A stretch of 64,000 bases of DNA from a phage, in the sequence record PZ534511.1, one strand, 5' to 3'. How positions within the stretch are numbered: position 1 is the first letter of the stretch; every line of letters starts with the position of its first letter. Below are positions 4,564 through 60,655 of the stretch, piece after piece. The translations under genes were made by a program, and so were the position numbers. The notes beneath the pieces were generated by a model. The model was not told the origin of the DNA, made no database searches, and was given only the letters and a program-made list of their open reading frames with translations.

Positions 4564-5541
4564 ATGAATCTTGAAAAATATTATACACCAGAAGAGTTAG
4601 AGCGCTTGCTCAAAAAATATAGACGCAAACAGAATAACGCACGGAAACGAGATATAGAGTTCGACCTGTCATGGGAAGAATACCTCCTATTTGGTAAAAA
4701 ACTTTTAGGAGATGGAGTATGCGACTATACCCTTATACCTTTTGACATGCACACAGATGAAAACGGGCTGGGGAATCCTTTCTACCCATCTCTGGAGCGG
4801 ATAGATGATGAAGGTCCTTATGCGGCTGATAACTGTTGTGTGGTGGGATTGAGATGCAACTCTCTAAAGGACTGTCTGGTAGATAAAAAGACTGCAGTCT
4901 TGATTAAAGACGAAACTGATCGAAAAATTGTCCAGCAGATGATGCTCCACCTGAGCGAAGAGCGTATGGAGAAATTGAAAGGTGATTATACTTTTGAAGA
5001 TTTCATCTTGCAATATGGAACGGAAGAGGATAAACTAGCACTCTTTGACGAAGAAGAGGAGGAAGATATGCTACCGATGTCTAAAGTTACTTATCGTGCA
5101 CCCAAGAAGCACATTTCCGACATTGTAAACGAGCCTATCACAGAAGAGATTGAAGAAATGACGCAACAGGTGCATGAAGAGGAAAAAGAGACTCAGGAGG
5201 TCGAAGAGGAGCTTACAGAAGAGGTTCCTGCACTACCTGATGATGTTGAGATTGCCAAAGCTTACACTTTCTATTGTCAAACGTTCTACGATGTAGGTAT
5301 GAAAGTTGATCTGTCATTCAGCCAATTTAAGAGTTCGTATATTCGCAAATGCTGTGCTTTAACTGGTGAACGTCTTGGAGCTGGACTTAAACCCCTGTTG
5401 GTGACCGACTGGAATAAAGGTTTCACTAAAGGAAACTTTATGGTAGTATCTCCAATTATGGAGAAAGCTATGACAGATCTTATGAAGACCACCCGCATGA
5501 CAATGACCGAGTTGGCAGGTATTTTCAAACACGTTAAATAA
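4564..5541 (+). CDS. Hypothetical acidic protein
   Basis: Track ORF 4498..5541; start placed at ATG 4564 downstream of promoter-like element; Glu-rich centre; internal in-frame ATG at 5077 lies in second copy of the 29-bp repeat. Confidence 0.5.
   Translation: MNLEKYYTPEELERLLKKYRRKQNNARKRDIEFDLSWEEYLLFGKKLLGDGVCDYTLIPFDMHTDENGLGNPFYPSLERIDDEGPYAADNCCVVGLRCNSLKDCLVDKKTAVLIKDETDRKIVQQMMLHLSEERMEKLKGDYTFEDFILQYGTEEDKLALFDEEEEEDMLPMSKVTYRAPKKHISDIVNEPITEEIEEMTQQVHEEEKETQEVEEELTEEVPALPDDVEIAKAYTFYCQTFYDVGMKVDLSFSQFKSSYIRKCCALTGERLGAGLKPLLVTDWNKGFTKGNFMVVSPIMEKAMTDLMKTTRMTMTELAGIFKHVK
5072..5100 (+). repeat. 29-bp perfect inverted repeat, copy B
   Basis: Inside ORF 4564..5541 in frame (LPMSKVTYRA), preceded by GAGGAGG; flanking bases differ. 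Confidence 0.85.
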
Positions 5542-11252: not shown

Positions 11253-11286
11253 AAAAAGAAAGGGGCCGTCTGGCCCCTTTTTATTT
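11253..11286. terminator. Bidirectional rho-independent terminator at convergent junction
   Basis: Hairpin GGGGCC-gtct-GGCCCC flanked by A-run upstream and T-run downstream. Confidence 0.6.
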
Positions 11287-11294
11287 GCCTCCTG

Positions 11295-14200
11295 TTAACT
11301 AGGGAAGTTTGTATAAGCTTCGAGATGGTATTGCTGGTTACCAGGTAGCATAACACCTATGCTTGCAACACCTAATGTTCTACCACCAGGGTTCCACTGA
11401 AACTTAAATCCAATCCAACCCGAGCTTCTGGCTGCATCAATGTTGTCACTGTACCCAAAAGTGGCTAGACCATCAACACCTGCTCCGAAAAGCAGTTGTA
11501 TCTGGTTCCTTGGTAGGCCAATAATTTCAGGTATGTAAGCACCAAAAAATGTAGGGTTGGTGGTTGTGGTCGGATTGTTCATGACCGGACCGGTAAAGAC
11601 CCTCATATTGGACGTTCCTGCAGGTCTAGGGTAAGCCCCGTCAAGAGGATTTCCTTCCCAAATAAACCACTGAGGTGCCATCTGTCTGACAGTAAACGAT
11701 GTTGAAGACGTTTTGCGGCCTGCATCATCTCTAACTACAAACTTTATGGTGACATTCCCAGTAGCTTTAAATGTTACCAGCCCTGTGGTGGCATCCACTG
11801 TTGCAATGTTGGTATTACTACTTTCCCAAGTCTTTCTAATCCCGGATACGTTGGAAGGGGTGATAGAAGGTTCCTGCATCTGCAGTTTACCGCCCACAAT
11901 CCCTATGCCGTTGCCCGGATTATACAGCACACCGACCTCGTCTATAATGTTCCCTGCTTTGAGACTATACTTCCTTGAGAAGTTGTAAGTTCCGTTATAA
12001 GTGTGTGTCCCTGAGAATGTGACATCTGCCTTCCCGTAAGAGATGCAAACCAACGCATACTTCCTGTCAGGCAACGTTTCTCCAGTCTCTGGGTGAGTTT
12101 TACCTACCTGGAACACACTCGGGTCAGTAGAGTCGTGACTATCACTAACGGAGCTTGGACCGCCCATCAACTGTGACAAACAATTCCTTACCCATGTCCA
12201 GTTATTATCGCTGGAGAAGTCCACAGTCAAATCAAACACAACCCACTCATTTGGCTTCCACACAGGTGTTGCAATGGACTTGCCTACACCGCCTCCTTGG
12301 AGTGTTGCCGACTGTTCGGTGATCAGTGCCGCATAGGCCAGAGTTCCTAAACTCAGAGTCTGGCTTGCTGTCCTCACTACCTTAGAATCAGCATCTGTGA
12401 AGTTGTTGATGATTTGGAATGTGCCATAAGTGTTTTTACAGGTAATTCTGGCGTTCAGCGTGTCAATCTTCCTCACATCTGCCATAGCAGTGTTAGACAC
12501 AGAGAAGTCAGAAGCTTTAGCTGAGTTTGCCGCAACAGCAGGATCAACGTTAAGAGTTGCGTTGAACTGACAGGCAGGGGTAACCAGCAGCTTGTTATCA
12601 CCTATTTGCTTCCATGAAATACTTTGGACAGGTAGATTCCATTTAATACCTGAGAAAACTTTAGCAACCCTTGGCCCCAAAGCTCCAGTCCTGTTGTCTT
12701 TACAGCACATAGACATGGTGATCGTTGACGGAGTTGCCTGACCGAACAATTCCTGTGCTTTTGCAGAGGACATGGTGTAGAAATTGTCCTTAACAAACTC
12801 ATCAGCGGCTAAAGATCCATCAGCCCTCCACCACTGGACCTGATACCCTGTTTTATCCCAGCCTCCAACCTGCTTCAAGTCCTCCCAAGAGATTTCCAGA
12901 TCCCCCGTGGTAGGGTTGATTGCAGCAGTTCCTGGTGTACCGGATGACCACAATGGGATATCAAACCACGCAGGTTTAACAGATTGCACTGCATTAGGAC
13001 CTATTGCAGCAGCAAGTTGTTGACCCATCAGCACGCGAGCATCTTTCACCAGGCCCCATTCTATCATAGACCCAGAGTAACCTTCTTTCTTGTAGGCAGA
13101 GGATCCGTTCAAATGGATGAGCCTGCTGCAGTCGAAGCCATACGCTCCACCACCGTTAGGATCTGCAAAGTTGGTTATGATTCTATCCCTAATATTTTTC
13201 CATGCCCTACCTCCAATCTCGTAGTCATGGTCATAACATCTTTGCAACGTTGTCCAGCAAATGATTGCCATTCTTCTGCCGCCTGTGAACCCGAAAGCGC
13301 CGTCATTCAGCTCTTTCCACAGGTAACAGTTGGTTGTCCACATAGCCCTGTGGATATTGAACCAGTTTATAGATTTGGCTGAGTTGTTCCACTGAGTCCC
13401 AGGTAATTCAGGCCACACTGCATTGACTAGCATGTCCTCTGTACCGGCATCTATTAAGAAGCCTCTTACCTTCTTGCCCATACCTACCCTGTCTTTAGCA
13501 ATCCAATTGCCAAACAGTCTCAGTTTTGGACCATAAACAACATCCTCTGGGTGCTCAAAAGAGACATACTTTAAGTAGATTGTTGGGTCACCGTAGGTGC
13601 CATCACAAACACTTTTGTGCATGTTTTCGCCAAGGTCTAGACGAAGCCCCGTCACTACTTTAGACGTGTCGGTGAATTTGTCTGTTAAGTCAAATTCATA
13701 CCACCACCACCCACCACCTAGCATAAATTTCTTGCATCGCACAGCGTCTGTGTCAGATATTCTCTTATCCCCTGCAAAAGGTGAATCAGCAAACTGATAG
13801 TGCAGAGCAGTCTCAAATAGGTGGGTGGAAGTTCCGTTCTCTGCAAGAACTTGCTTACCTATCAGATCGCACTTAATGATCATCACAACACGCTTGTATC
13901 CGTTTGTTACCGGAACTTGCATAGATATGGATGTTCCATCCATGTTCGATCTTAGATCACTCATGATGATATAGGGGTCGACAGCGTTGCCTAAAGTTTC
14001 AGGCCCTGGAATTATCTTGTATTTCTTGACCTGGCCCATAAATCTGTCACTGGCGTAAGTTGCAGCCTCAAAACAAGAGCCACCACCAGGTAATTCTCCA
14101 GGTCCCCAGAAAAATGCCCCATAGCAGTTATAGAACCACTTATTAGGGTCGTATTTGTTCTTGAAGGTCTGGACCTCGTTGGCCTGTTTTGTCAAGAAAA

Positions 14201-16922
14201 CCTGCGTGTCTGTGAAGATTGCAGGGTTTACTCTCGCCTGTCTTGGAGGGTAACCTGTAGTTTGGTTAAACCACAAATTACAAGAGTAATCCCTCATATA
14301 GTCATAATCAGAGTATTTGTTTACATCTTCGTTCCAACACATGTTTAGGTTGGTACCGCCCATGCATACAATATATTCTGCGACATACTTATCACTTCTG
14401 GTAGGAATACCTATGAACCATCTGTTAACAGGCTCATCCCAAGCTGTGCGCTCATCTTTAACGCAGATAGCAATCCAGTCATGTGTTCCTGTTTTCTTGC
14501 ACACATCTCGCTTCATACCATAGTAGAACTCTTTAGTATTCGGCTCAGGTGCATTTATCAGGTAACTCCATGCCTGATTTGCATAAGTTCCATTGGTGCG
14601 TGGATCATGATCAAAGGCATACATGATGATCCTTTCCCCACCAAGATGTTCGCCAAGAGTAACTTTGACATTCACATCGCCGTAACCATTGCGAACAACA
14701 TCCATATTATCAATAGAGATACCTCTGGGCGTGTAGGCAATTTTCAGCGAGTTATCTTCACTAGTGCCGCCAAGTGTAATCCCTATGTTGTTTGTTGTCC
14801 CGTCGACATATCTTACTGTAGCTTCCCAGCGTATTCCGAAATACCCTGCATCATGGCTGACAATTTTCAGTGTACGAGCTCCTGGGTGAGGTTTTCCAGG
14901 ATCAGGCCAAGGGTCTGGGTGTTCGTGAACAGTCAACGACGTTCCGTTCTGCTCATTAACCTGCAACATTTTACCACCCTTGCCATTAGGATTGAACTCC
15001 CACAAGGCTTGTGTTTTCACAATATTGTCATACGTGGCGCGTCTTTGATCGTAGATCTCTTGGGTCACATCATAAGTGACTGATCCAGCATCCATTCTGT
15101 GGAGTCTGACCATATACGATGTATCCCCTTCTACTGCAGGCTGGGTCCCATTCAGCCCAAAGTATACAGTATCATTAACATGGAACTGTTTGTTTCTACC
15201 GACAGTATGCCATTTACCATCAGACGGGTACGCAGGAACTATGGTGTTCCAGTTCAAAGTCCTTGTCGTATGGGTTCTGCCTGTGCCATGCTTGTCATGA
15301 TAGGTTATTTTTACAGAGTACAGGCCACGTCTGTTAACATTTCTGTTATACTGGGTGACAACAACTTCATTGGCCCCTCCGTGGTTCCAGTTGGTGGAGA
15401 ATTGGTAATTTGCATCTGTAACAACCGTGCCTGCAGCATTTACCAGTTCAATCTTGTCAATAATGAACGTAGCCCCCTCTGGCTGAGGCTTCAATTTCAT
15501 CTTGACCGTGTCACCAATGTAAATATTGCTAACGCTGCTAACACCGTTAACGTCGAAAATATCCTCAACACCCCAACTGTCTACCGGGACATTTTTATAC
15601 CAATTCTCCGGAATCTCTGTGAACCCTTGGCTGTTAAGTCTGCCGCCAAAGAGGTTATTAGATCCTGTAAAACTTCCCCTTGGGATACCTGACCACCAAA
15701 GTTTACCATTAACAACAGTAAAGGTACCTAAGAAACCTTCTCTGTGGATGCCTTGGAAATAAACACTCTCTGTCCAGCTGACTGGCAGGCGTTGCTCAAC
15801 ATATTTAGCTGTAGCAAGAGCTTGATAGTGGATAAAATCGGCCCTAGGACTATTGTTTGCAGATTGTGCACCAATATCATTACATAAGTTGCGAGAGAAC
15901 CCACGATACTGCTTAGTGCCATTATTGAAGAAAATGCCACTTGTGCCGTACCCACGAGCCATCATTACCTCATGGGTGTAGGTGATATTCAGTTCCCGCC
16001 ATGTATCATCTCCCCAAATGTTTTGACCATAAAATACGTTAACAAGCTGCTGGTCATCGGGTCTATGCATCCTCTGTGTAGCAATTACTGCCCCGTTAGG
16101 ACCACACATAAACCCTTTCCACTCCTCATCTGCAGGAATGCCCCTCAAATCGTTACGAGTAATCTGCACAGGAGGCCAAACAAGGTCGTTTCTACTGTTA
16201 TTTCTCAGAAAGTCGTAACCTGCAATCCAGAATCCGTTAGGACCACCAAAAATAACCGAGTTGTCATGAACTTCACAATTAATTCTTGGATTTTTCCAAG
16301 GACCTGTCTCTGGACTTTCAGATGTTTCACCGATCTTAACTGGAGTAGCGTGTTGACTTTTGTCAACATGAAGAGAGCCGTAAGTATTATTGCCAGAGCC
16401 GTACAGGTGAAGCATACCATCAGCCTCTGGTGCAGCAATTACCCACACGGTATTGTTTACGCCACCCATTACTTCAACAAGTCTCTCAGGATGGGTGTCC
16501 AAATGCAACCCTGTTACGATCTGTTCCGGCAAAGGTGTCCACTCTCTGACACAAACATCGTTTCCACCTGCTGCCTCCGATCCGATAAGACCAGCTGTGC
16601 AACCAATATAGAAAAATTTATTATCGAATGTGCGGATTACAAATGCACGGTCAGCTCTCCAAACATGGTCTACGTTCCAAGCTGCCTCATTAGGATAGTT
16701 TATTGTATCAAGATCTCCAGTCCGACACTCTCCGAACCTATTATAGCCAGTAATATTAAGCTGACCATCATCAAAAAGTATAGCTAAGCTATTTACATAG
16801 GATACTGTGTTGCTTGTACCATCACTGTTGTCTATTGGGTATGACAGAACAGCAAGTTCCTTAATTCCACCCCTCTTATCGAGGAAATGACGACCAAGTT
16901 TTAGCAAAGGGATTGGAAGCAT
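11295..16922 (-). CDS. Giant virion-associated fibre/adhesin-like protein (1875 aa) with N-terminal RCC1-like repeats
   Basis: Single uninterrupted ORF; N-terminal repeats GYNRFGECRTG / YGSGNNTYGSLHVD; last gene of structural block. Confidence 0.6.
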   Translation of the reverse strand: MLPIPLLKLGRHFLDKRGGIKELAVLSYPIDNSDGTSNTVSYVNSLAILFDDGQLNITGYNRFGECRTGDLDTINYPNEAAWNVDHVWRADRAFVIRTFDNKFFYIGCTAGLIGSEAAGGNDVCVREWTPLPEQIVTGLHLDTHPERLVEVMGGVNNTVWVIAAPEADGMLHLYGSGNNTYGSLHVDKSQHATPVKIGETSESPETGPWKNPRINCEVHDNSVIFGGPNGFWIAGYDFLRNNSRNDLVWPPVQITRNDLRGIPADEEWKGFMCGPNGAVIATQRMHRPDDQQLVNVFYGQNIWGDDTWRELNITYTHEVMMARGYGTSGIFFNNGTKQYRGFSRNLCNDIGAQSANNSPRADFIHYQALATAKYVEQRLPVSWTESVYFQGIHREGFLGTFTVVNGKLWWSGIPRGSFTGSNNLFGGRLNSQGFTEIPENWYKNVPVDSWGVEDIFDVNGVSSVSNIYIGDTVKMKLKPQPEGATFIIDKIELVNAAGTVVTDANYQFSTNWNHGGANEVVVTQYNRNVNRRGLYSVKITYHDKHGTGRTHTTRTLNWNTIVPAYPSDGKWHTVGRNKQFHVNDTVYFGLNGTQPAVEGDTSYMVRLHRMDAGSVTYDVTQEIYDQRRATYDNIVKTQALWEFNPNGKGGKMLQVNEQNGTSLTVHEHPDPWPDPGKPHPGARTLKIVSHDAGYFGIRWEATVRYVDGTTNNIGITLGGTSEDNSLKIAYTPRGISIDNMDVVRNGYGDVNVKVTLGEHLGGERIIMYAFDHDPRTNGTYANQAWSYLINAPEPNTKEFYYGMKRDVCKKTGTHDWIAICVKDERTAWDEPVNRWFIGIPTRSDKYVAEYIVCMGGTNLNMCWNEDVNKYSDYDYMRDYSCNLWFNQTTGYPPRQARVNPAIFTDTQVFLTKQANEVQTFKNKYDPNKWFYNCYGAFFWGPGELPGGGSCFEAATYASDRFMGQVKKYKIIPGPETLGNAVDPYIIMSDLRSNMDGTSISMQVPVTNGYKRVVMIIKCDLIGKQVLAENGTSTHLFETALHYQFADSPFAGDKRISDTDAVRCKKFMLGGGWWWYEFDLTDKFTDTSKVVTGLRLDLGENMHKSVCDGTYGDPTIYLKYVSFEHPEDVVYGPKLRLFGNWIAKDRVGMGKKVRGFLIDAGTEDMLVNAVWPELPGTQWNNSAKSINWFNIHRAMWTTNCYLWKELNDGAFGFTGGRRMAIICWTTLQRCYDHDYEIGGRAWKNIRDRIITNFADPNGGGAYGFDCSRLIHLNGSSAYKKEGYSGSMIEWGLVKDARVLMGQQLAAAIGPNAVQSVKPAWFDIPLWSSGTPGTAAINPTTGDLEISWEDLKQVGGWDKTGYQVQWWRADGSLAADEFVKDNFYTMSSAKAQELFGQATPSTITMSMCCKDNRTGALGPRVAKVFSGIKWNLPVQSISWKQIGDNKLLVTPACQFNATLNVDPAVAANSAKASDFSVSNTAMADVRKIDTLNARITCKNTYGTFQIINNFTDADSKVVRTASQTLSLGTLAYAALITEQSATLQGGGVGKSIATPVWKPNEWVVFDLTVDFSSDNNWTWVRNCLSQLMGGPSSVSDSHDSTDPSVFQVGKTHPETGETLPDRKYALVCISYGKADVTFSGTHTYNGTYNFSRKYSLKAGNIIDEVGVLYNPGNGIGIVGGKLQMQEPSITPSNVSGIRKTWESSNTNIATVDATTGLVTFKATGNVTIKFVVRDDAGRKTSSTSFTVRQMAPQWFIWEGNPLDGAYPRPAGTSNMRVFTGPVMNNPTTTTNPTFFGAYIPEIIGLPRNQIQLLFGAGVDGLATFGYSDNIDAARSSGWIGFKFQWNPGGRTLGVASIGVMLPGNQQYHLEAYTNFPS

Positions 16923-16930
16923 TGTGTTCT

Positions 16931-16962
16931 CCAGATAAGAAAACCGCCCCGTCAGGAGCGGT
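16931..16962 (-). terminator. Terminator-like hairpin
   Basis: ACCGC..GCGGT stem followed on minus strand by TTTTCTTATCT. Confidence 0.35.
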
Positions 16963-16972
16963 TAGATATATA

Positions 16973-18718
16973 TTAACGTTGTGCAATTACTACGTCTACG
17001 ATATCACCAACACCACAATATGTTAATTGCAGCAAGGTAACACTATTAGCCTTGTTATTAATAACAGGCGTTGCCGACAGGATAGCATACTTATCGTGCA
17101 AAGTCACGTTGTGACCTACAGCATCCTGAATGACATAGATAACCGCAGTGAATGGATAAGGTTTATCTTCCGCTGATGTACCAGGCCATTGTCCTATTGT
17201 AAAATCCCCTTTCGCGTGGACAACATACATACTGGCCTGCCCGTTAGGTGTCCATGTCCCACTGGACGCGTCAACCTCCTCTAAATCAAAATCTACCTTT
17301 CCTGCGTGGAAAGTAGGGGCAGTAATGGTTTTACCCGCCTCAATTTCTTGAGAGGTGGTTATCTTGCCACTGGAGTTAATGCCATTACAAACAAAGTTGA
17401 CATTAGAGAAGTCTGGCAGCCACCCAGTCACTGTGCCGGATATTTCAAGGTTGTGAAGGTAGGTGGTGCCCGTCCCTGCTGCGTTTAAACTAACATCTCC
17501 ATTTACCTGCAAGTTTCTGGTAACGTTGCAGTTTTCAGAGTTTGCAGTTGTTGCAGTTAAAGTAGTGGTTGTCAGCTCGGTAATTACACCTTTGTTGGCT
17601 GTAAGCCCTTCCCCTTCAAAAGTTGCACGCTCATTGACTCTTAGGGTATTCAGAGCTATGTTTTGGATAGAGGCTGTACCTCGAATAACTACAGATCCGC
17701 CAACTTCTAAATCACCATTTATTAATGCGTCCCCCGTGCTTTCAATATAGCTAGGGTAAATCATGGTGCCATCGACAGAGTAGGTTATCCCTGTAACAGT
17801 GCCTGTCACCTCAAGGTTCTTAACCCTGGTGGTTCCATCTACCTGCAATGTCGGTTCGGTTGCTGCCTTCATGGCATTACCACGAATGTACACGTAGTCA
17901 AAAAAGTTATTACCTAGACCATCAAAATGCACATCGTTATTATTAGCCACTGGTTTCCCAGAAGTTATAGTGTCAGCTATAACCCTGTGGGTGGACACTT
18001 CATGAGGTTGCAGCTCTGTGCTTCTCCAGTCTGCATGCTTAGGATCACTCCACGCAAAAGTAAGTGTAGAAGTATTTGCCGTGAGGATTAGGTTCCTGAA
18101 GCGTGCAGTAGAATCTGCTCCATTAACAGGCCCATGTAAGGTGAGTGTGCCACCAACTATAGTGTTAGCAAGTTCTGTAAGACCTTTTACCACCAAAGAT
18201 CCTACAGTAACTTTCATTCCCTCCATGGCTTCAAATATGCTATCCACATAGTCAACAACAAACTCTGTGTTTGCTATAGACTCGGATTTGTCGTCCATTG
18301 GAGGCGTAGGTACTCGCGGGTCACCTTCGAACCTCGGACTGTTAAGTTTTGCGTAGTATTTTGCCATTACTGCAGAATCGGTATATAATCTCCAGTTTGG
18401 AGATTGTGAAGGATCTGCTGGCATTCTAACCGGGTTAGATTTTGATGCTGCGGGAGCGTACCACCACTGAGGGCCTGTGTCCCCTTTAAACTCGTACAGC
18501 TGGTTAAAAACTGTTGTGGATGCACCATACGCCCAAGGGATCGGTGGCGTTTTAAAATAAAGGGTGTCAAGCATGGCTTTTCGTACCGTAGGGATGGTGG
18601 TCCCATCCTCTACGACAACTTCATCCACAGCGTTACCGTTGACAATCAGGTGCAAACGTTCAGAATCAACAATTACTTGATCTACCGCCTGCTCAAAGCT
18701 TGTCATGTCTTGCGCCAT
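16973..18718 (-). CDS. Tail fibre/tailspike-like protein (581 aa)
   Basis: Position in fibre cluster; Thr/Gly/Asn-rich repeat-like composition. Confidence 0.45.
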   Translation of the reverse strand: MAQDMTSFEQAVDQVIVDSERLHLIVNGNAVDEVVVEDGTTIPTVRKAMLDTLYFKTPPIPWAYGASTTVFNQLYEFKGDTGPQWWYAPAASKSNPVRMPADPSQSPNWRLYTDSAVMAKYYAKLNSPRFEGDPRVPTPPMDDKSESIANTEFVVDYVDSIFEAMEGMKVTVGSLVVKGLTELANTIVGGTLTLHGPVNGADSTARFRNLILTANTSTLTFAWSDPKHADWRSTELQPHEVSTHRVIADTITSGKPVANNNDVHFDGLGNNFFDYVYIRGNAMKAATEPTLQVDGTTRVKNLEVTGTVTGITYSVDGTMIYPSYIESTGDALINGDLEVGGSVVIRGTASIQNIALNTLRVNERATFEGEGLTANKGVITELTTTTLTATTANSENCNVTRNLQVNGDVSLNAAGTGTTYLHNLEISGTVTGWLPDFSNVNFVCNGINSSGKITTSQEIEAGKTITAPTFHAGKVDFDLEEVDASSGTWTPNGQASMYVVHAKGDFTIGQWPGTSAEDKPYPFTAVIYVIQDAVGHNVTLHDKYAILSATPVINNKANSVTLLQLTYCGVGDIVDVVIAQR

Positions 18719-22116: not shown

Positions 22117-24189
22117 TTATGAGAAGTCTGGAGGGACAACATCTTCTACATACCCTTTCAGAGCAACCTGCCCCATATGAAGCACGGTAGAATCTCTGGC
22201 TGTAACAGTGATGCTGTCAGACATTACTTGCGGGTATGCCCACACATACTGTTTTACCTCAGGGTATCTATACTCTATGGTTGCCATGTTTCCGCAGATA
22301 CATCTCCATAAAAATTCTTGGTAATTCCTGGTTGGGTCGTAGCCATATACCGGAGCAAGCTCTTTACTAGGAACGAACCCTGCAAGGTATTGTATTTCAG
22401 ACGGTTGCCAACCTAACTTAACGATAGGTATGTTTACAGACTCTTTTGCCTTTTCAATACCTCCCTGCATCACCCAATCGTAGCACTCGGTGCAGAAGAA
22501 ATCAAGAGCACCTGCTTCTTTTTTATATTGGTCAGCAAGGTTCAGCTTTTGCGTAAGCTCTGTTTCCATAATGGTTGGGAAAAACAGCAGAGCTGTCATC
22601 TGAGCTGATGCAGCGTGTGCCTTTATTGCCTTTGAAATGGCCGCAATACGAGCGCCAAGCTTACCACGACAAAATGCTACATACTTGTCGTAAACACCGC
22701 CAGTTTTAGGATCGTCAATAGTCCCAATATCTAATGCATACTCACCTGTCTCATCATAAAACGCCTGCTTTGTAGGGTAATCATAAATACAAGGTCTACG
22801 AGTATCGGTATTGTACCACCACCACGGTTCACCAACCTGCATAATCACTGGCAGGTTGTTTCTCATAGCGGCTGATGCAAAATTCTTAAATACTGCAGTA
22901 AGGAAATTCATACCCTCTTCAATGGTTGGAGACAGGAGGTAGCTACAGGGTGTATACCCTGTTTTAGCGTAGTTATCGTTCCAGTCTCTTTGGGTCCATT
23001 CCAACGGGCAGGCATCGCTGAAAAGCTCAAAACTTACAGATTGCATAACGTCGAAGTTATGTCGTTTGGCATTGTACATAAAATCATCATGCCATTTATA
23101 AGCTGCAGCGTTTAGCGCCCCTGTTCTGTTTATAGACCATTGGGTTCCTGACCATGTGTAGTCATAATAATGACTCATACCAACATAATGGTTTATGGTT
23201 CCGGTATAGCCCAGACGCTTGATATTGTTCAACACCCTTAAAGGAGATACGTTCCACATATCGTCATATGCGGTGCAGATCCCAACGTCGTGCTCTTTAA
23301 CCTGAATATTGTTAAGTTGCATCATTTTCCAGCCTGTGTCTGGCTGGAGCAGATCTAGGCGCAACTCACACTCTACATTTTCCGTTCTCGGGTCTGTGCT
23401 ATTACTTACCCAGTCTTTAGGCATAAGCGGTATTAAAATCCTTCTCACCTGTCGAGGATCAACACCCATCATGTTGTTGTTCTGATCCATCCCGACGCAG
23501 TCCTCGAAATCAATATGAATCTCTGCAACATTCTTATCCTCTGAGATGCTGACAGCATATTGAGCTAAAGGAACATAGATGATTGTGCCATCAACAAGGT
23601 CTACAGTCATAATCATCTTTTCAGGGGTGGAGAAGTTGCTGGCATTGGTTATTGACATTCTGAACCAAAGCTTGGTGTTTCTCATCTCATAGTGATCATC
23701 AAACCCAATACCGAAATGGTCATACTTGTCAACTGTTTCCCAAATGCACCCAGCCATACCTCCATATGTTCTTGACACTAAACGGTTAATACAACAGTTG
23801 TTATCTGCAACAATACAGGTACTTTCAGTCTGCTGAGTAGTTGTAACCCAATACCTTGGGTGAAACATTCTCTCCTCAACAGTATCCCAAGATATCCTGT
23901 CAAGATTCTCATCTGAAACTATTGTACATTTCGCCCTTTGTGTTCCAATCATCACCCCTTGAGATTTTGATGAAAACTCCATAAAGAAGCTTCTTGGCAA
24001 CCTGTTGGGTAATTTGTCAACAATTTCCACTGGGATCTCAATACTGGTTGCCCCAATTGGGATAGTTACATCACCCTCAACATGATTATAATCCCTACCA
24101 GGAACGGCAGTATCCTGAACTGTGCGGTAATGAAACCGTGCAGCCATTGTAGAGTAATCACGGTAAGGTTTAAAAATAGCTGTTGCCAT
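22117..24189 (-). CDS. Baseplate-associated fibre/spike protein (690 aa)
   Basis: Position between gpI-like gene and fibre paralogs; no firm motif. Confidence 0.4.
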   Translation of the reverse strand: MATAIFKPYRDYSTMAARFHYRTVQDTAVPGRDYNHVEGDVTIPIGATSIEIPVEIVDKLPNRLPRSFFMEFSSKSQGVMIGTQRAKCTIVSDENLDRISWDTVEERMFHPRYWVTTTQQTESTCIVADNNCCINRLVSRTYGGMAGCIWETVDKYDHFGIGFDDHYEMRNTKLWFRMSITNASNFSTPEKMIMTVDLVDGTIIYVPLAQYAVSISEDKNVAEIHIDFEDCVGMDQNNNMMGVDPRQVRRILIPLMPKDWVSNSTDPRTENVECELRLDLLQPDTGWKMMQLNNIQVKEHDVGICTAYDDMWNVSPLRVLNNIKRLGYTGTINHYVGMSHYYDYTWSGTQWSINRTGALNAAAYKWHDDFMYNAKRHNFDVMQSVSFELFSDACPLEWTQRDWNDNYAKTGYTPCSYLLSPTIEEGMNFLTAVFKNFASAAMRNNLPVIMQVGEPWWWYNTDTRRPCIYDYPTKQAFYDETGEYALDIGTIDDPKTGGVYDKYVAFCRGKLGARIAAISKAIKAHAASAQMTALLFFPTIMETELTQKLNLADQYKKEAGALDFFCTECYDWVMQGGIEKAKESVNIPIVKLGWQPSEIQYLAGFVPSKELAPVYGYDPTRNYQEFLWRCICGNMATIEYRYPEVKQYVWAYPQVMSDSITVTARDSTVLHMGQVALKGYVEDVVPPDFS

Positions 24190-60556: not shown

Positions 60557-60655
60557 GGTGCTAGGTGATGGAATCGAACCACCTATGTATTCAACGACTA
60601 CCTCGTCTATTTTCAGGATTAAAAATCCTCGCCCTTGCCAAAGGGCTTACCTAGC
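60557..60655 (-). tRNA. Atypical tRNA-like gene (about 99 nt; possible UUU anticodon; about 30-nt variable region)
   Basis: Perfect acceptor GCUAGGU/ACCUAGC, D-arm GCCC-UUUGGCAA-GGGC, T-arm GGUGG-UUCGAUU-CCAUC, but anticodon arm non-canonical and extra hairpin ACGAGGUAGUCGU; 3' CC only. Confidence 0.4.

What the first reader, a model, noticed from the sequence alone, without database searches (positions are those of the whole stretch)
11295..16922. Single 1875-aa ORF with RCC1-like repeats closing the structural block
One uninterrupted 5.6-kb ORF ends the late operon against the bidirectional terminator. Its N-terminus has propeller-like repeats (GYNRFGECRTG; YGSGNNTYGSLHVD), unusual for a fibre protein, and the remainder is Gly/Asn/Thr/Trp-rich, consistent with carbohydrate-binding or adhesin domains. 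It may be a giant adhesin, a depolymerase, or an ejected protein.
Basis: partly seen in the sequence, partly recalled or inferred. Interest (0 to 1): 0.5.

Follow-up and report, generated by a model that had tools for sequence, protein, structure and literature searches.

The report
Giant accessory phage tail adhesin
This is the already catalogued giant last gene of the tail-fibre cluster of an rV5-like coliphage: a protein that is dispensable on laboratory E. coli K-12, probably sits on the virion as an adhesin, and is built from an RCC1-like propeller, Ig-like domains and a sugar-binding-type domain. It is notable mainly because about 1200 of its residues have no relatives outside its own family and its place on the virion is still unassigned.

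Summary
The ORF is real: 11295-16922 on the minus strand, 1875 aa, 208 kDa. The window is a Vequintavirus, 99.4% identical here to phage DrSchubert. The gene is the orthologue of rV5 gp27 and bas54_0041, annotated "lateral tail fiber protein with intimin domain".

A profile of residues 1-460 plus syntenic homologues hits solved RCC1-like propellers (HERC1, E=1e-8), and the homologues pass Pfam RCC1 at the quoted YGSGNN motif.

dN/dS is 0.06-0.08 along the whole gene, so it is not a pseudogene fusion. Published transposon data show the orthologue is dispensable on K-12, and three K-12-isolated relatives carry null alleles. Short syntenic homologues (CB7_37, W70_106) are virion proteins by mass spectrometry.

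A hairpin with a U-tract always separates the gene from the upstream fibre gene, whose C-terminal head is co-conserved.

Best reading: a low-copy, conditionally useful virion adhesin, possibly docked on that fibre head. Depolymerase and ejected-protein readings are unsupported. The gene is known; interest is modest.

The parts
11295..16922 (-). Giant ORF of 1875 aa and 208 kDa; orthologue of rV5 gp27, bas50_0041 and bas54_0041; PHROG 15684
15573..16922 (-). Residues 1-450: conserved MxPIP N-terminal peptide plus an RCC1-like repeat domain. About seven repeats by inspection; the propeller fold is inferred from homology, not from a model. This is the most conserved part of the family.
   Evidence: the AF2 model of this part failed
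14388..15560 (-). Residues 455-845: beta-rich region, probably tandem Ig/FN3-like sandwiches (low confidence)
   Evidence: pLDDT 60-80 only for residues 486-564 and 735-840; Foldseek hits to multi-Ig chains, low TM-scores
14031..14387 (-). Residues 846-964: conserved region predicted helical, fold unknown
   Evidence: pLDDT below 50
13548..14030 (-). Residues 965-1125: beta-jelly-roll of carbohydrate-binding-module type
12933..13535 (-). Residues 1130-1330: Trp-rich domain with many invariant E/D/H/R/C/W residues (GTEDMLVNAVWP, INWFNxHRAMW, ICWTxLxRCYD, EGYSGSMIEWG). No detectable homologue and fold unknown.
11898..12932 (-). Residues 1331-1675: the most variable part of the family (16-35% identity between subgroups). 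Candidate specificity region.
11682..11879 (-). Residues 1682-1747: Big_2 (intimin/invasin-type) Ig-like domain
11298..11681 (-). Residues 1748-1875: variable C-terminal domain, only 73% identical even in the 93%-identical relative. It is truncated by a frameshift in DrSchubert.
16942..16963 (-). GC-rich tetraloop hairpin with a U-rich tail, placed between the upstream fibre gene and the ORF's ribosome-binding site (rV5 t028). Candidate attenuating terminator.
16929..16932 (-). GGAG ribosome-binding site, 6 nt before the ATG
11259..11280 (.). Bidirectional intrinsic terminator shared with the convergent early block (rV5 t026/t027)
16973..18718 (-). Upstream partner gene of 581 aa, the rV5 gp28 / bas54_0040 fibre. 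Orthologues in relatives carry Pfam Phage_phiTE_241_N/C.
16976..17290 (-). C-terminal ~105-aa head of the upstream fibre. It is conserved at 43-65% identity in every lineage, including those where the rest of the fibre is unrelated. Proposed docking site.

Best explanation
The ORF encodes a low-copy, conditionally useful, virion-borne adhesin of the multivalent Vequintavirus tail apparatus. It is probably a monomeric chain of globular domains ('beads on a string') rather than a classical trimeric fibre.

Proposed roles of the parts:
- The conserved N-terminal module (MxPIP peptide plus RCC1-like repeat domain) is the constant part. It most likely anchors the protein to the virion. My specific proposal is that it docks on the conserved C-terminal head of the fibre encoded immediately upstream (gp28 / phiTE_241 family).
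- The Ig-like sandwiches act as spacers.
- The CBM-type jelly roll, the conserved Trp-rich domain, the variable region and the Big_2/C-terminal end contact surface glycans of particular hosts or of the environment.
- The hairpin with a U-tract between the two genes lowers expression relative to the fibre.

Shown: gene identity, domain content, selection, dispensability on K-12, virion presence of short homologues, and the conserved gene pair with its hairpin.
Inferred: virion attachment of the giant form, the docking partner, the monomeric state, glycan binding and attenuation.
For: Identity and context:
- 99.4% nucleotide identity to DrSchubert bas50_0041, and the gene is the last one of the lateral tail-fibre cluster.
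- The position is the same in relatives that are 40-58% identical.

Domains:
- RCC1-like repeats.
- Big_2.
- CBM-type jelly roll.
- No coiled coil, beta-helix, S74 chaperone or enzyme family was detected.

Family modularity:
- The same N-terminal module heads the syntenic last gene in Seunavirus (567-604 aa: propeller plus Big_2) and Phapecoctavirus (890 aa).
- It also heads the stand-alone ~410-aa proteins of Certrevirus and Septuagintavirus. hhalign gives probability 94% and E=1e-7, with the alignment starting at Met1.
- A constant N-terminus with variable distal parts is the pattern expected of virion-anchored receptor-binding proteins.

Virion presence:
- CB7_37 is marked 'MS/MS confirmed'.
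- W70_106 gave 115 spectra against 996 for the adjacent fibre W70_107. Per kDa this is a ratio of about 1:3.4.
- rV5 gp27 itself gave 3 peptides, 9 spectra and 3.1% coverage in the raw data.

Function is real but conditional:
- dN/dS is 0.057-0.078 overall and at most 0.11 in every region.
- bas54_0041 tolerates transposon insertions on K-12, and other hosts make different fibre genes conditionally essential.
- Null alleles occur in K-12 isolates.
- Variability is concentrated in the C-terminal third.

Partner and attenuator:
- The upstream fibre's C-terminal ~105 aa is conserved in all lineages, even where the rest of the fibre is unrelated.
- A hairpin with a U-tract but different stem sequences precedes the gene in five lineages, with z-scores of -2.5 to -5.4. 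It is annotated as a terminator in phiTE.
- No late promoter is predicted between rV5 gp28 and gp27.
Against: - The giant protein has never been located on a virion. The rV5 authors did not count their 3 weak, partly non-tryptic peptides as MS evidence.
- Only three of nine annotated fibres were seen by cryo-EM.
- That TC8 is the gp28 orthologue is my inference from its description and the absence of domain annotation in both. It is not verified, because the supplement is not held.
- The phi92-like syntenic protein JLBYU50_144 keeps the MYPIP peptide but goes straight into Big_2 without a propeller. If docking exists it may therefore use the N-terminal peptide rather than the propeller.
- The fibre-head domain occurs in more phage records (385) than the N-terminal 460-aa query finds (214), so the pairing is not strictly one-to-one.
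- Both AF2 models were poor outside one domain, so the seven-blade propeller and the Ig chain are not structurally confirmed.
- A CBM-like fold does not prove sugar binding.
- A hairpin with a U-tract can also stabilise the upstream mRNA rather than attenuate transcription.
Confidence: 0.55

Rival explanations
1. It is a classical homotrimeric lateral tail fibre, as in the BASEL annotation. It attaches directly to the baseplate through its N-terminus and recognises a host receptor with its C-terminus.
For: It is annotated 'lateral tail fiber protein with intimin domain' and sits in the fibre cluster. The BASEL paper counts it among three large fibre genes that show allelic variation. The N-terminus is conserved and the C-terminus is variable.
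Against: No trimerisation hallmark was found: no coiled coil, triple beta-helix, S74 intramolecular chaperone or adjacent assembly chaperone. The N-terminus is an RCC1-like repeat domain, and the solved relatives of that domain are propellers; that these act as single-chain units rather than trimerising rods is my own knowledge, not tested here. The rest is made of globular beta-sandwich and jelly-roll domains. No density could be assigned to it in Bas54. The short family members are only 410-600 aa of globular domains.
Confidence: 0.15
2. It is a Hoc-like environmental adhesin: a dispensable virion decoration whose Ig-like and CBM-like domains hold the phage in mucus, biofilm matrix or faecal glycans. 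It would not act in host recognition.
For: It has a Big_2 Ig-like domain and a CBM-type domain. It is dispensable in the laboratory yet under strong purifying selection in nature. It is repeatedly lost in K-12 isolates. These phages come from gut and sewage sources. The comparison with T4 Hoc rests on my own knowledge, not on a test here.
Against: It lies in the tail-fibre cluster, paired with a fibre gene, not among the head genes. Allelic variation in the distal third suggests a variable, that is bacterial, ligand. Some Bas54 fibre genes are conditionally essential depending on the host, although the text does not say whether 0041 is one of them.
Confidence: 0.15
3. It is an enzyme-bearing fibre component, a depolymerase or glycan-modifying enzyme. 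The strongly conserved Trp-rich domain at 1130-1330 (perhaps together with 846-964) would be a new catalytic domain, with the CBM-like domain targeting it to substrate.
For: Residues 1130-1330 are the most conserved stretch outside the N-terminus and are rich in invariant E, D, H, R and C residues. They lie next to a CBM-type module, the usual arrangement in glycoside hydrolases. Neighbouring fibre genes of this cluster carry glycosidase or deacetylase domains.
Against: No enzyme family matches in Pfam, NCBIfam, PHROGs or PDB profiles. There is no homologue at all outside the family. AF2 gave no usable model of this region. Conservation alone does not indicate catalysis.
Confidence: 0.1
4. It is an internal or ejected virion protein, or a non-virion protein released at lysis.
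For: It is very large and was not firmly detected in rV5 virions.
Against: Its domain types are those of surface proteins: Big_2, CBM-like, propeller. No hydrolase or ejection-protein family matches in Pfam, NCBIfam or PHROGs; no transmembrane-segment predictor was run. It is dispensable for infective virions. Its short homologues are virion proteins encoded next to a fibre gene.
Confidence: 0.03
5. It is a decaying gene, a fusion of pseudogenised fragments kept open by chance.
For: Three relatives carry a frameshift or nonsense mutation. The gene is dispensable on K-12.
Against: The 5.6-kb frame is open in the window, in MaxBurger and in MaxTheCat, and 108 of 122 phage records match at least 80% of the gene's length at the DNA level; their reading frames were not checked. 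dN/dS is 0.057-0.078 overall and at most 0.11 in every region. Full-length homologues exist at 40% identity.
Confidence: 0.01

Closest known systems
rV5 gp27 / BASEL bas50_0041 and bas54_0041 (PHROG 15684; 'lateral tail fiber protein with intimin domain', 'Ig-like domain-containing protein')
   Same: Orthologues at 92-99% nucleotide identity, with the same length and the same position. bas54_0041 is experimentally dispensable on K-12.
   Different: Nothing material; this is the same gene. The published annotation names only the Big_2 domain. I did not find the RCC1-like N-terminus, the CBM-type domain, the orphan status or the flanking hairpin described in the papers I could read.
phiTE_242 / CB7_37 / W70_106: stand-alone ~410-aa virion proteins of Certrevirus and Septuagintavirus
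   Same: Homologous N-terminal module starting at Met1 (hhalign 94%, E=1e-7). Weak RCC1-like signal. Same position after a phiTE_241-type fibre gene, with a terminator in between.
   Different: They are only ~410 aa and lack the ~1400-aa extension. They are detected in virions by MS, which is not firmly shown for the giant form.
Seunavirus 4MG_038 / SSE121 gp048 (567-604 aa) and Phapecoctavirus tuntematon gp128 (890 aa) 'tail proteins'
   Same: Same syntenic slot. The N-terminal ~450 aa aligns throughout (30-39% identity over the first ~200 aa). The same Big_2 domains follow. These proteins pass the Pfam RCC1 cut-off.
   Different: In those proteins Big_2 follows the propeller directly. Here about 1200 orphan residues are inserted between the two.
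RCC1-like domains (RCC1, HERC1/2 RLD, RPGR, UVR8; Pfam PF00415 and PF25390)
   Same: Repeat sequence signature, with significant profile matches to the solved propellers.
   Different: The protein's own Pfam scores are far below the cut-offs. The context is a phage structural protein. No guanine-nucleotide-exchange or chromatin role is implied. The blade number is unverified.
Tip adhesins carried on trimeric fibres (T4 / S16 gp38 type). Comparison from my own knowledge, prompted by the remark.
   Same: The working analogy is a separate polypeptide, encoded just after the fibre gene, sitting on the fibre's distal end and providing specificity at lower stoichiometry.
   Different: No sequence relation. 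The protein here is 10 times larger, has a different fold set, and is dispensable on the laboratory host. Attachment is not demonstrated.
Carbohydrate-binding modules of the beta-jelly-roll type (CBM4, 11, 15, 17, 22, 27, 28, 29, 30, 86 and others)
   Different: Only 4-15% identity, no family assignment, and the binding site and ligand are unknown.
T4 Hoc and other Ig-domain decorations of phage particles (my own knowledge)
   Same: An Ig-like domain on a dispensable structural protein.
   Different: The gene here is in the tail cluster, is much larger, and has extra domains.

Membership tests
RCC1-like repeat domain (Pfam PF00415 RCC1, PF13540 RCC1_2, PF25390 WD40_RLD) | The protein's own score reaches the curated Pfam cut-off | tested here: not met
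   WD40_RLD scored 20.2 bits against a cut-off of 150 (E=4e-4). RCC1_2 scored 13.7 against 22. PF00415 was not reported.
RCC1-like repeat domain (Pfam PF00415 RCC1, PF13540 RCC1_2, PF25390 WD40_RLD) | Significant profile-level homology to proteins with solved RCC1-like propellers | tested here: met
   Profile A4 against PDB sequences: HERC1 1.1e-8, HERC2 6.4e-7, RPGR 4.3e-6, UVR8 7e-4, plus RCC2 and ATS1. PHROG 4219 matched at E=4e-7.
RCC1-like repeat domain (Pfam PF00415 RCC1, PF13540 RCC1_2, PF25390 WD40_RLD) | Alignable homologues pass the RCC1 gathering score at the equivalent repeat | tested here: met
   P0019 scored 36.6 bits, P0023 31.5, P0020 28.6 and tuntematon gp128 23.9, against a cut-off of 21.7. 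The hits fall at the repeat that aligns with residues 171-187 here.
RCC1-like repeat domain (Pfam PF00415 RCC1, PF13540 RCC1_2, PF25390 WD40_RLD) | Seven-bladed beta-propeller made of ~50-60-aa repeats | tested here: inconclusive
   Seven repeats can be delimited by eye, but the AF2 model of this region had pLDDT of 20-60.
Big_2 bacterial Ig-like domain (PF02368) | Score above the gathering cut-off | tested here: met
   34.7 bits in the whole protein and 39.2 bits in the fragment, against a cut-off of 22.8, at residues 1682-1733. Weak intimin matches support this.
Beta-jelly-roll carbohydrate-binding modules | CBM-type jelly-roll fold | tested here: met
Beta-jelly-roll carbohydrate-binding modules | Sequence membership of a CAZy or Pfam CBM family | tested here: not met
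   No Pfam or NCBIfam hit. Identity to the matched structures is 4-15%.
Beta-jelly-roll carbohydrate-binding modules | Demonstrated glycan binding | not testable with these tools
   Needs glycan arrays or ITC with the purified domain.
Classical trimeric phage tail fibre or tailspike | Encoded within the tail-fibre gene cluster and expressed late | tested here: met
   It is the last gene of the cluster, on the same strand. Late expression is inferred from position only.
Classical trimeric phage tail fibre or tailspike | Trimerisation elements: coiled coil, triple beta-helix or beta-helix, S74 intramolecular chaperone, or a dedicated assembly chaperone | tested here: not met
   None was found by Pfam, PHROGs, NCBIfam or PDB profile searches. 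A terminator, not a chaperone gene, lies downstream. The oligomeric state itself was not tested.
Classical trimeric phage tail fibre or tailspike | Present in purified virions | tested here: inconclusive
   rV5 raw MS data give 3 peptides, 9 spectra and 3.1% coverage, which the authors did not claim as evidence. The short homologues CB7_37 and W70_106 are confirmed.
Classical trimeric phage tail fibre or tailspike | Required for adsorption to at least some hosts | not testable with these tools
   It is dispensable on K-12. The text gives no data for this gene on other hosts.
Phage depolymerase | A recognisable glycosidase, lyase or esterase catalytic domain | tested here: not met
   No such family appears in any library or in PDB profiles. 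Residues 1130-1330 remain unassigned.
Ejection or internal virion protein | Essential for infection; membrane-active or peptidoglycan-degrading segments | tested here: not met
   It is dispensable on K-12, and no peptidoglycan-degrading or ejection-protein family matches. Membrane-active segments were not tested: no transmembrane predictor was run.

The most novel reading that the evidence does not exclude
The MxPIP peptide plus RCC1-like domain is a previously undescribed plug-in module. Through it, monomeric adhesins ranging from 410 to 1976 aa would be mounted on the conserved C-terminal head of the gp28 / phiTE_241-type baseplate fibre. This would hold across Vequintavirinae and Stephanstirmvirinae, with an intervening terminator setting roughly 1:3 stoichiometry. 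It would also explain the unassigned density on the TC8 fibre head in Bas49 and Bas54. In addition, the 1200-residue orphan insert of the Vequintavirus version would contain a new glycan-binding or glycan-processing domain (residues 1130-1330).
Probability: 0.3. Interest if true: 0.55.

Novelty: already known. Interest (0 to 1): 0.3.

Why it matters
Vequintaviruses are among the most commonly isolated broad-host-range coliphages and are used in therapeutic cocktails. They encode about nine fibre-like proteins, and published work states that it is unclear which gene makes which fibre. Only three of those fibres have been placed by cryo-EM.

Three points make the apparatus easier to dissect and to engineer. 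First, this 208-kDa gene is a dispensable, modular, probably tip-mounted adhesin. Second, its anchor module is shared with much shorter proteins in five genera. Third, its partner may be the head of the upstream fibre. Together these suggest swapping the distal part while keeping residues 1-450.

The gene is also a clean example of about 1200 residues of orphan sequence under strong purifying selection. In addition, isolating phages on K-12 appears repeatedly to yield null alleles of accessory host-range genes. That is a caveat for phage collections built on laboratory strains.

None of this overturns current views, so the interest is that of a useful annotation refinement.

Tried and rejected
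- AF2 of residues 1-950 with a 16-sequence alignment failed, with mean pLDDT 41.5. Its Foldseek hits are used only as a weak hint of tandem beta-sandwiches.
- AF2 of residues 841-1330 gave a usable model only for residues 965-1125. The helical and Trp-rich flanks remain unassigned.
- Word-indexed homologue searches with the N-terminal domain alone, or with its profile, returned few sequences.
- An exhaustive phmmer search of residues 451-1650 found only family members.
- A full-length profile search against PDB sequences found nothing.
- NCBIfam found nothing beyond intimin-type Ig hits.
- The phi92 cryo-EM paper and the PVP-SE1 proteome paper are not held, and the RBPseg supplement is not held. 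The phi92 orthologue's location and the identity TC8 = bas54_0040 could therefore not be checked.
- The phiTE structure paper does not mention RCC1 or gene 242.
- I considered that the two amber alleles in relatives might be read through by a phage suppressor tRNA. No CUA-anticodon tRNA is present in the window.
- I considered a promoter between the hairpin and the start codon. Only about 20 nt are available, and rV5 has no predicted promoter there.
- Depolymerase, ejected-protein and pseudogene-fusion readings are rejected for the reasons given under the rival explanations.
Full report
**Observation**

The window contains one uninterrupted ORF at 11295-16922 on the minus strand. It has an ATG start, encodes 1875 aa and ends in TAA. 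The calculated mass is 208.4 kDa. GGAG lies 6 nt before the start codon. The N-terminus MLPIPLL is conserved in every homologue, which fixes the start.

They are largely invariant in a 16-member family that is 40-93% identical to the window protein.

Downstream, 11259-11280 is a GC hairpin that reads as a terminator on both strands. It separates the ORF from convergent plus-strand genes and corresponds to the published rV5 terminators t026/t027.

Of the claimed compositional bias, only Trp is clearly raised, at 3.1% against 1.7% in the other structural proteins.

**Identity**

The gene matches 122 phage records by megablast. The best matches are Vequintavirus DrSchubert (Bas50) and Mangalyan, both at 99.4%. 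The window is therefore an rV5-like myovirus.

The gene is the orthologue of several annotated genes:
- bas50_0041 and bas54_0041, 'lateral tail fiber protein with intimin domain'.
- rV5 gp27, 1878 aa, listed as a conserved hypothetical protein with Big_2.
- PHROG 15684, function unknown.

It is the last gene of the lateral tail-fibre cluster. The same order holds in metagenomic relatives that are only 40-58% identical.

**A real gene, not a fusion of dead fragments**

Compared with MaxBurger and MaxTheCat, dN/dS is 0.078 and 0.057 overall. It is at most 0.11 in each of five regions. dS ranges from 0.03 to 0.38 between regions, which indicates a recombination mosaic.

**Domain content**

*N-terminus (residues 1-450).* Pfam gives only sub-threshold RCC1 hits for the protein itself: WD40_RLD E=4e-4 at 20 bits against a cut-off of 150, and RCC1_2 E=0.058. 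PHROG 4219, 'regulator of chromosome condensation', matches at 4e-7.

tblastn showed that the first ~200 residues recur at 30-39% identity at the start of the syntenic last gene in two other genera:
- Phapecoctavirus (tuntematon gp128, 890 aa).
- Seunavirus (4MG_038, GAP31_232, SSE121 gp048; 567-604 aa).

The alignment extends over the whole ~450-residue domain. Those homologues pass the Pfam RCC1 gathering score at exactly the repeat equivalent to LYGSGNNTYGSL. A profile of the domain hits solved RCC1-like propellers: HERC1 1.1e-8, HERC2 6e-7, RPGR 4e-6 and UVR8 7e-4.

Seven repeats can be marked by eye, but AF2 did not give a usable model of this region.

*Big_2.* Residues 1682-1747 pass the Pfam Big_2 cut-off. 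This is the 'intimin' part of the annotation.

*Middle of the protein.*
- Residues 451-1650 found only two proteins, both family members, among 1.84 billion representatives.
- A full-length family profile found nothing in PDB sequences.
- Residues 455-845 are beta-rich, with two moderately confident sandwiches. They weakly resemble chains of Ig/FN3 domains.
- Residues 1130-1330 are Trp-rich and are the best conserved stretch outside the N-terminus, with many invariant acidic, basic, His and Cys residues. No fold or family can be assigned to them.

*Variability.* The family is most variable from about residue 1330 onward. This matches the 'moderate allelic variation' noted for this gene in the BASEL paper.

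**Experimental evidence from the literature**

- In the HIDEN-SEQ transposon study, bas54_0041 tolerated disruptive insertions. [quoted passage not shown] Other hosts made different fibre genes conditionally essential. bas54_0041 is the 95.6%-identical, full-length orthologue.
- Three relatives isolated on K-12 carry null alleles. DrSchubert has a T6-to-T5 frameshift that truncates the last ~85 residues. magaca has TAT-to-TAG at codon 617 and nomine has TGG-to-TAG at codon 82. No suppressor tRNA is present in the window.
- In rV5 virion proteomics, the raw table lists locus 27 with 3 peptides, 9 spectra and 3.1% coverage. The authors did not flag gp27 as MS-supported.
- Cryo-EM of Bas49 and Bas54 placed only three of nine annotated fibres.

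**A wider family and a conserved gene pair**

The C-terminal ~105 residues of the upstream fibre (rV5 gp28, bas54_0040, window 16973-18718) are conserved at 43-65% identity in every lineage. This includes Phapecoctavirus, where the rest of that fibre is unrelated. The head domain occurs in 385 phage records.

In Certrevirus, the gene after the head-bearing fibre is a ~420-aa protein with the same weak RCC1-like signal (CR3_gp034). Its orthologues are phiTE_242, CB7_37 and W70_106. A profile of these four aligns with the N-terminal profile of the giant protein's family from Met1 onward, with hhalign probability 94% and E=1e-7.

CB7_37 is annotated 'MS/MS confirmed'. W70_106 was found in virions with 115 spectra, against 996 for the adjacent fibre W70_107. 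Per kDa that is roughly 1:3.4.

The N-terminal module therefore heads a family of virion proteins of very different length, always encoded right after a fibre that ends in the same head domain. In phi92-like JLBYU50, the syntenic 939-aa protein keeps MYPIP but continues directly into Big_2. The extreme N-terminal peptide may therefore matter more than the propeller.

The RBPseg paper reports a Vequintavirinae fibre class, TC8, that has no InterPro annotation. It has an alpha-helical N-terminus, two beta-helices and a C-terminal head. [quoted passage not shown] The gp28 orthologue is the fibre gene here that lacks any Pfam hit, and its relatives carry Phage_phiTE_241_N/C. I infer that TC8 is this protein, but I could not verify it.

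**A conserved hairpin in front of the gene**

Between the fibre's stop codon and the ORF's ribosome-binding site lies a 9-bp GC hairpin with a tetraloop and a U-rich tail (16942-16963). It corresponds to rV5 t028, with a published free energy of -12.4 kcal/mol.

The same feature, with different stem sequences, occupies the same place in the distant relatives, in Phapecoctavirus and in Seunavirus. The fold z-scores are -2.5 to -5.4. In the phiTE RefSeq record it is annotated as a terminator.

There is no room for a promoter after it, and rV5 has none predicted there. The simplest reading is partial termination that lowers expression of the downstream protein relative to the fibre. This fits the low peptide counts. 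It is an inference, not a measurement.

**Interpretation**

The evidence fits a low-copy, conditionally useful, virion-borne adhesin:
- a constant N-terminal anchor module;
- spacer sandwiches;
- a CBM-type domain;
- a conserved domain of unknown function;
- a variable distal third ending in Big_2.

I put this at about 0.55. The specific claim that it docks on the gp28 head is lower, at roughly 0.3-0.35.

A classical trimeric fibre is less likely, because no trimerisation element is detectable and the building blocks are globular. A Hoc-like environmental adhesin cannot be excluded. An enzymatic role for residues 1130-1330 is possible but has no positive support. The ejected-protein and pseudogene readings are rejected.

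**Novelty and score**

The gene is already catalogued in more than 100 genomes, already annotated as a putative lateral fibre, and already tested for essentiality. What is added here is:
- the verified RCC1-like N-terminus and its family links across five genera;
- the CBM-type domain;
- the orphan status of about 1200 residues;
- the conserved fibre-head / hairpin / adhesin arrangement;
- the recurrent null alleles in K-12 isolates.

This is a useful refinement and gives a testable docking hypothesis, but it would not surprise a specialist. Interest is 0.3.

Noticed in passing
window 11295-16922 compared with L001 (DrSchubert), L011 (magaca) and L012 (nomine): Three relatives isolated on E. 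coli K-12 carry independent null alleles of this gene. DrSchubert has a T6-to-T5 frameshift at gene nt 5374. magaca has an amber codon at 617 and nomine an amber codon at 82. This suggests loss during isolation or propagation on the laboratory host, or sequencing error in the homopolymer case.
   Followed up: partly
window 16942-16963; L004, L005-L008, L009, L010, L018: A hairpin with a U-tract lies directly before the ribosome-binding site of the RCC1-type gene. It is conserved as a structure, with different stem sequences, in five lineages. It is annotated as a terminator in phiTE.
   Followed up: yes
window 16976-17290 (C-terminal 105 aa of the upstream fibre gene): This head domain occurs in 385 phage records. 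They include phi92-like phages and jumbo Asteriusvirus phages (SP27, slurp01, CMSTMSU), where it ends the 'long tail fiber proximal subunit'. A related jumbo phage (phAPEC6) is reported to encode eleven RCC1-like proteins; it was not itself among the listed hits, and that SP27/slurp01/CMSTMSU share this trait was not checked.
   Followed up: partly
phage collection hits: Fifteen GenBank records named 'Campylobacter phage' (C9, A112b, C12 and others) carry this gene at about 93% nucleotide identity to coliphages. They are probably mislabelled or contaminant rV5-like genomes.
   Followed up: no
protein P0018: A 318-aa fragment 97% identical to residues ~394-710 is labelled 'Eggerthella lenta' at NCBI. 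This is probably phage contamination of that assembly.
   Followed up: no
window 60557-60655 (-): ARAGORN reports a 99-nt 'tRNA-???' with a four-base anticodon, inside the cluster of six ordinary tRNA genes (Pro, Met, Thr, Ser, Tyr, Arg).
   Followed up: no
L010 13163-14008 (-): A distant relative encodes a 281-aa protein with a YadA_anchor (trimeric autotransporter) Pfam hit. It lies in the convergent early block just beyond the giant gene.
   Followed up: no
window 11295-16922 compared with L002 (MaxBurger): Synonymous divergence varies more than tenfold along the gene: dS is 0.38 for residues 1-450 and 0.03 for residues 851-1330. This indicates recent recombination between alleles.
   Followed up: partly
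window 22117-24189 (-): The rV5 gp34 orthologue matches Pfam 'non-contractile tail sheath protein' TIM barrel at E=4e-80, plus a Calx-beta domain. This is a different description from its GenBank note of 'glycosidase and deacetylase domains'.
   Followed up: no
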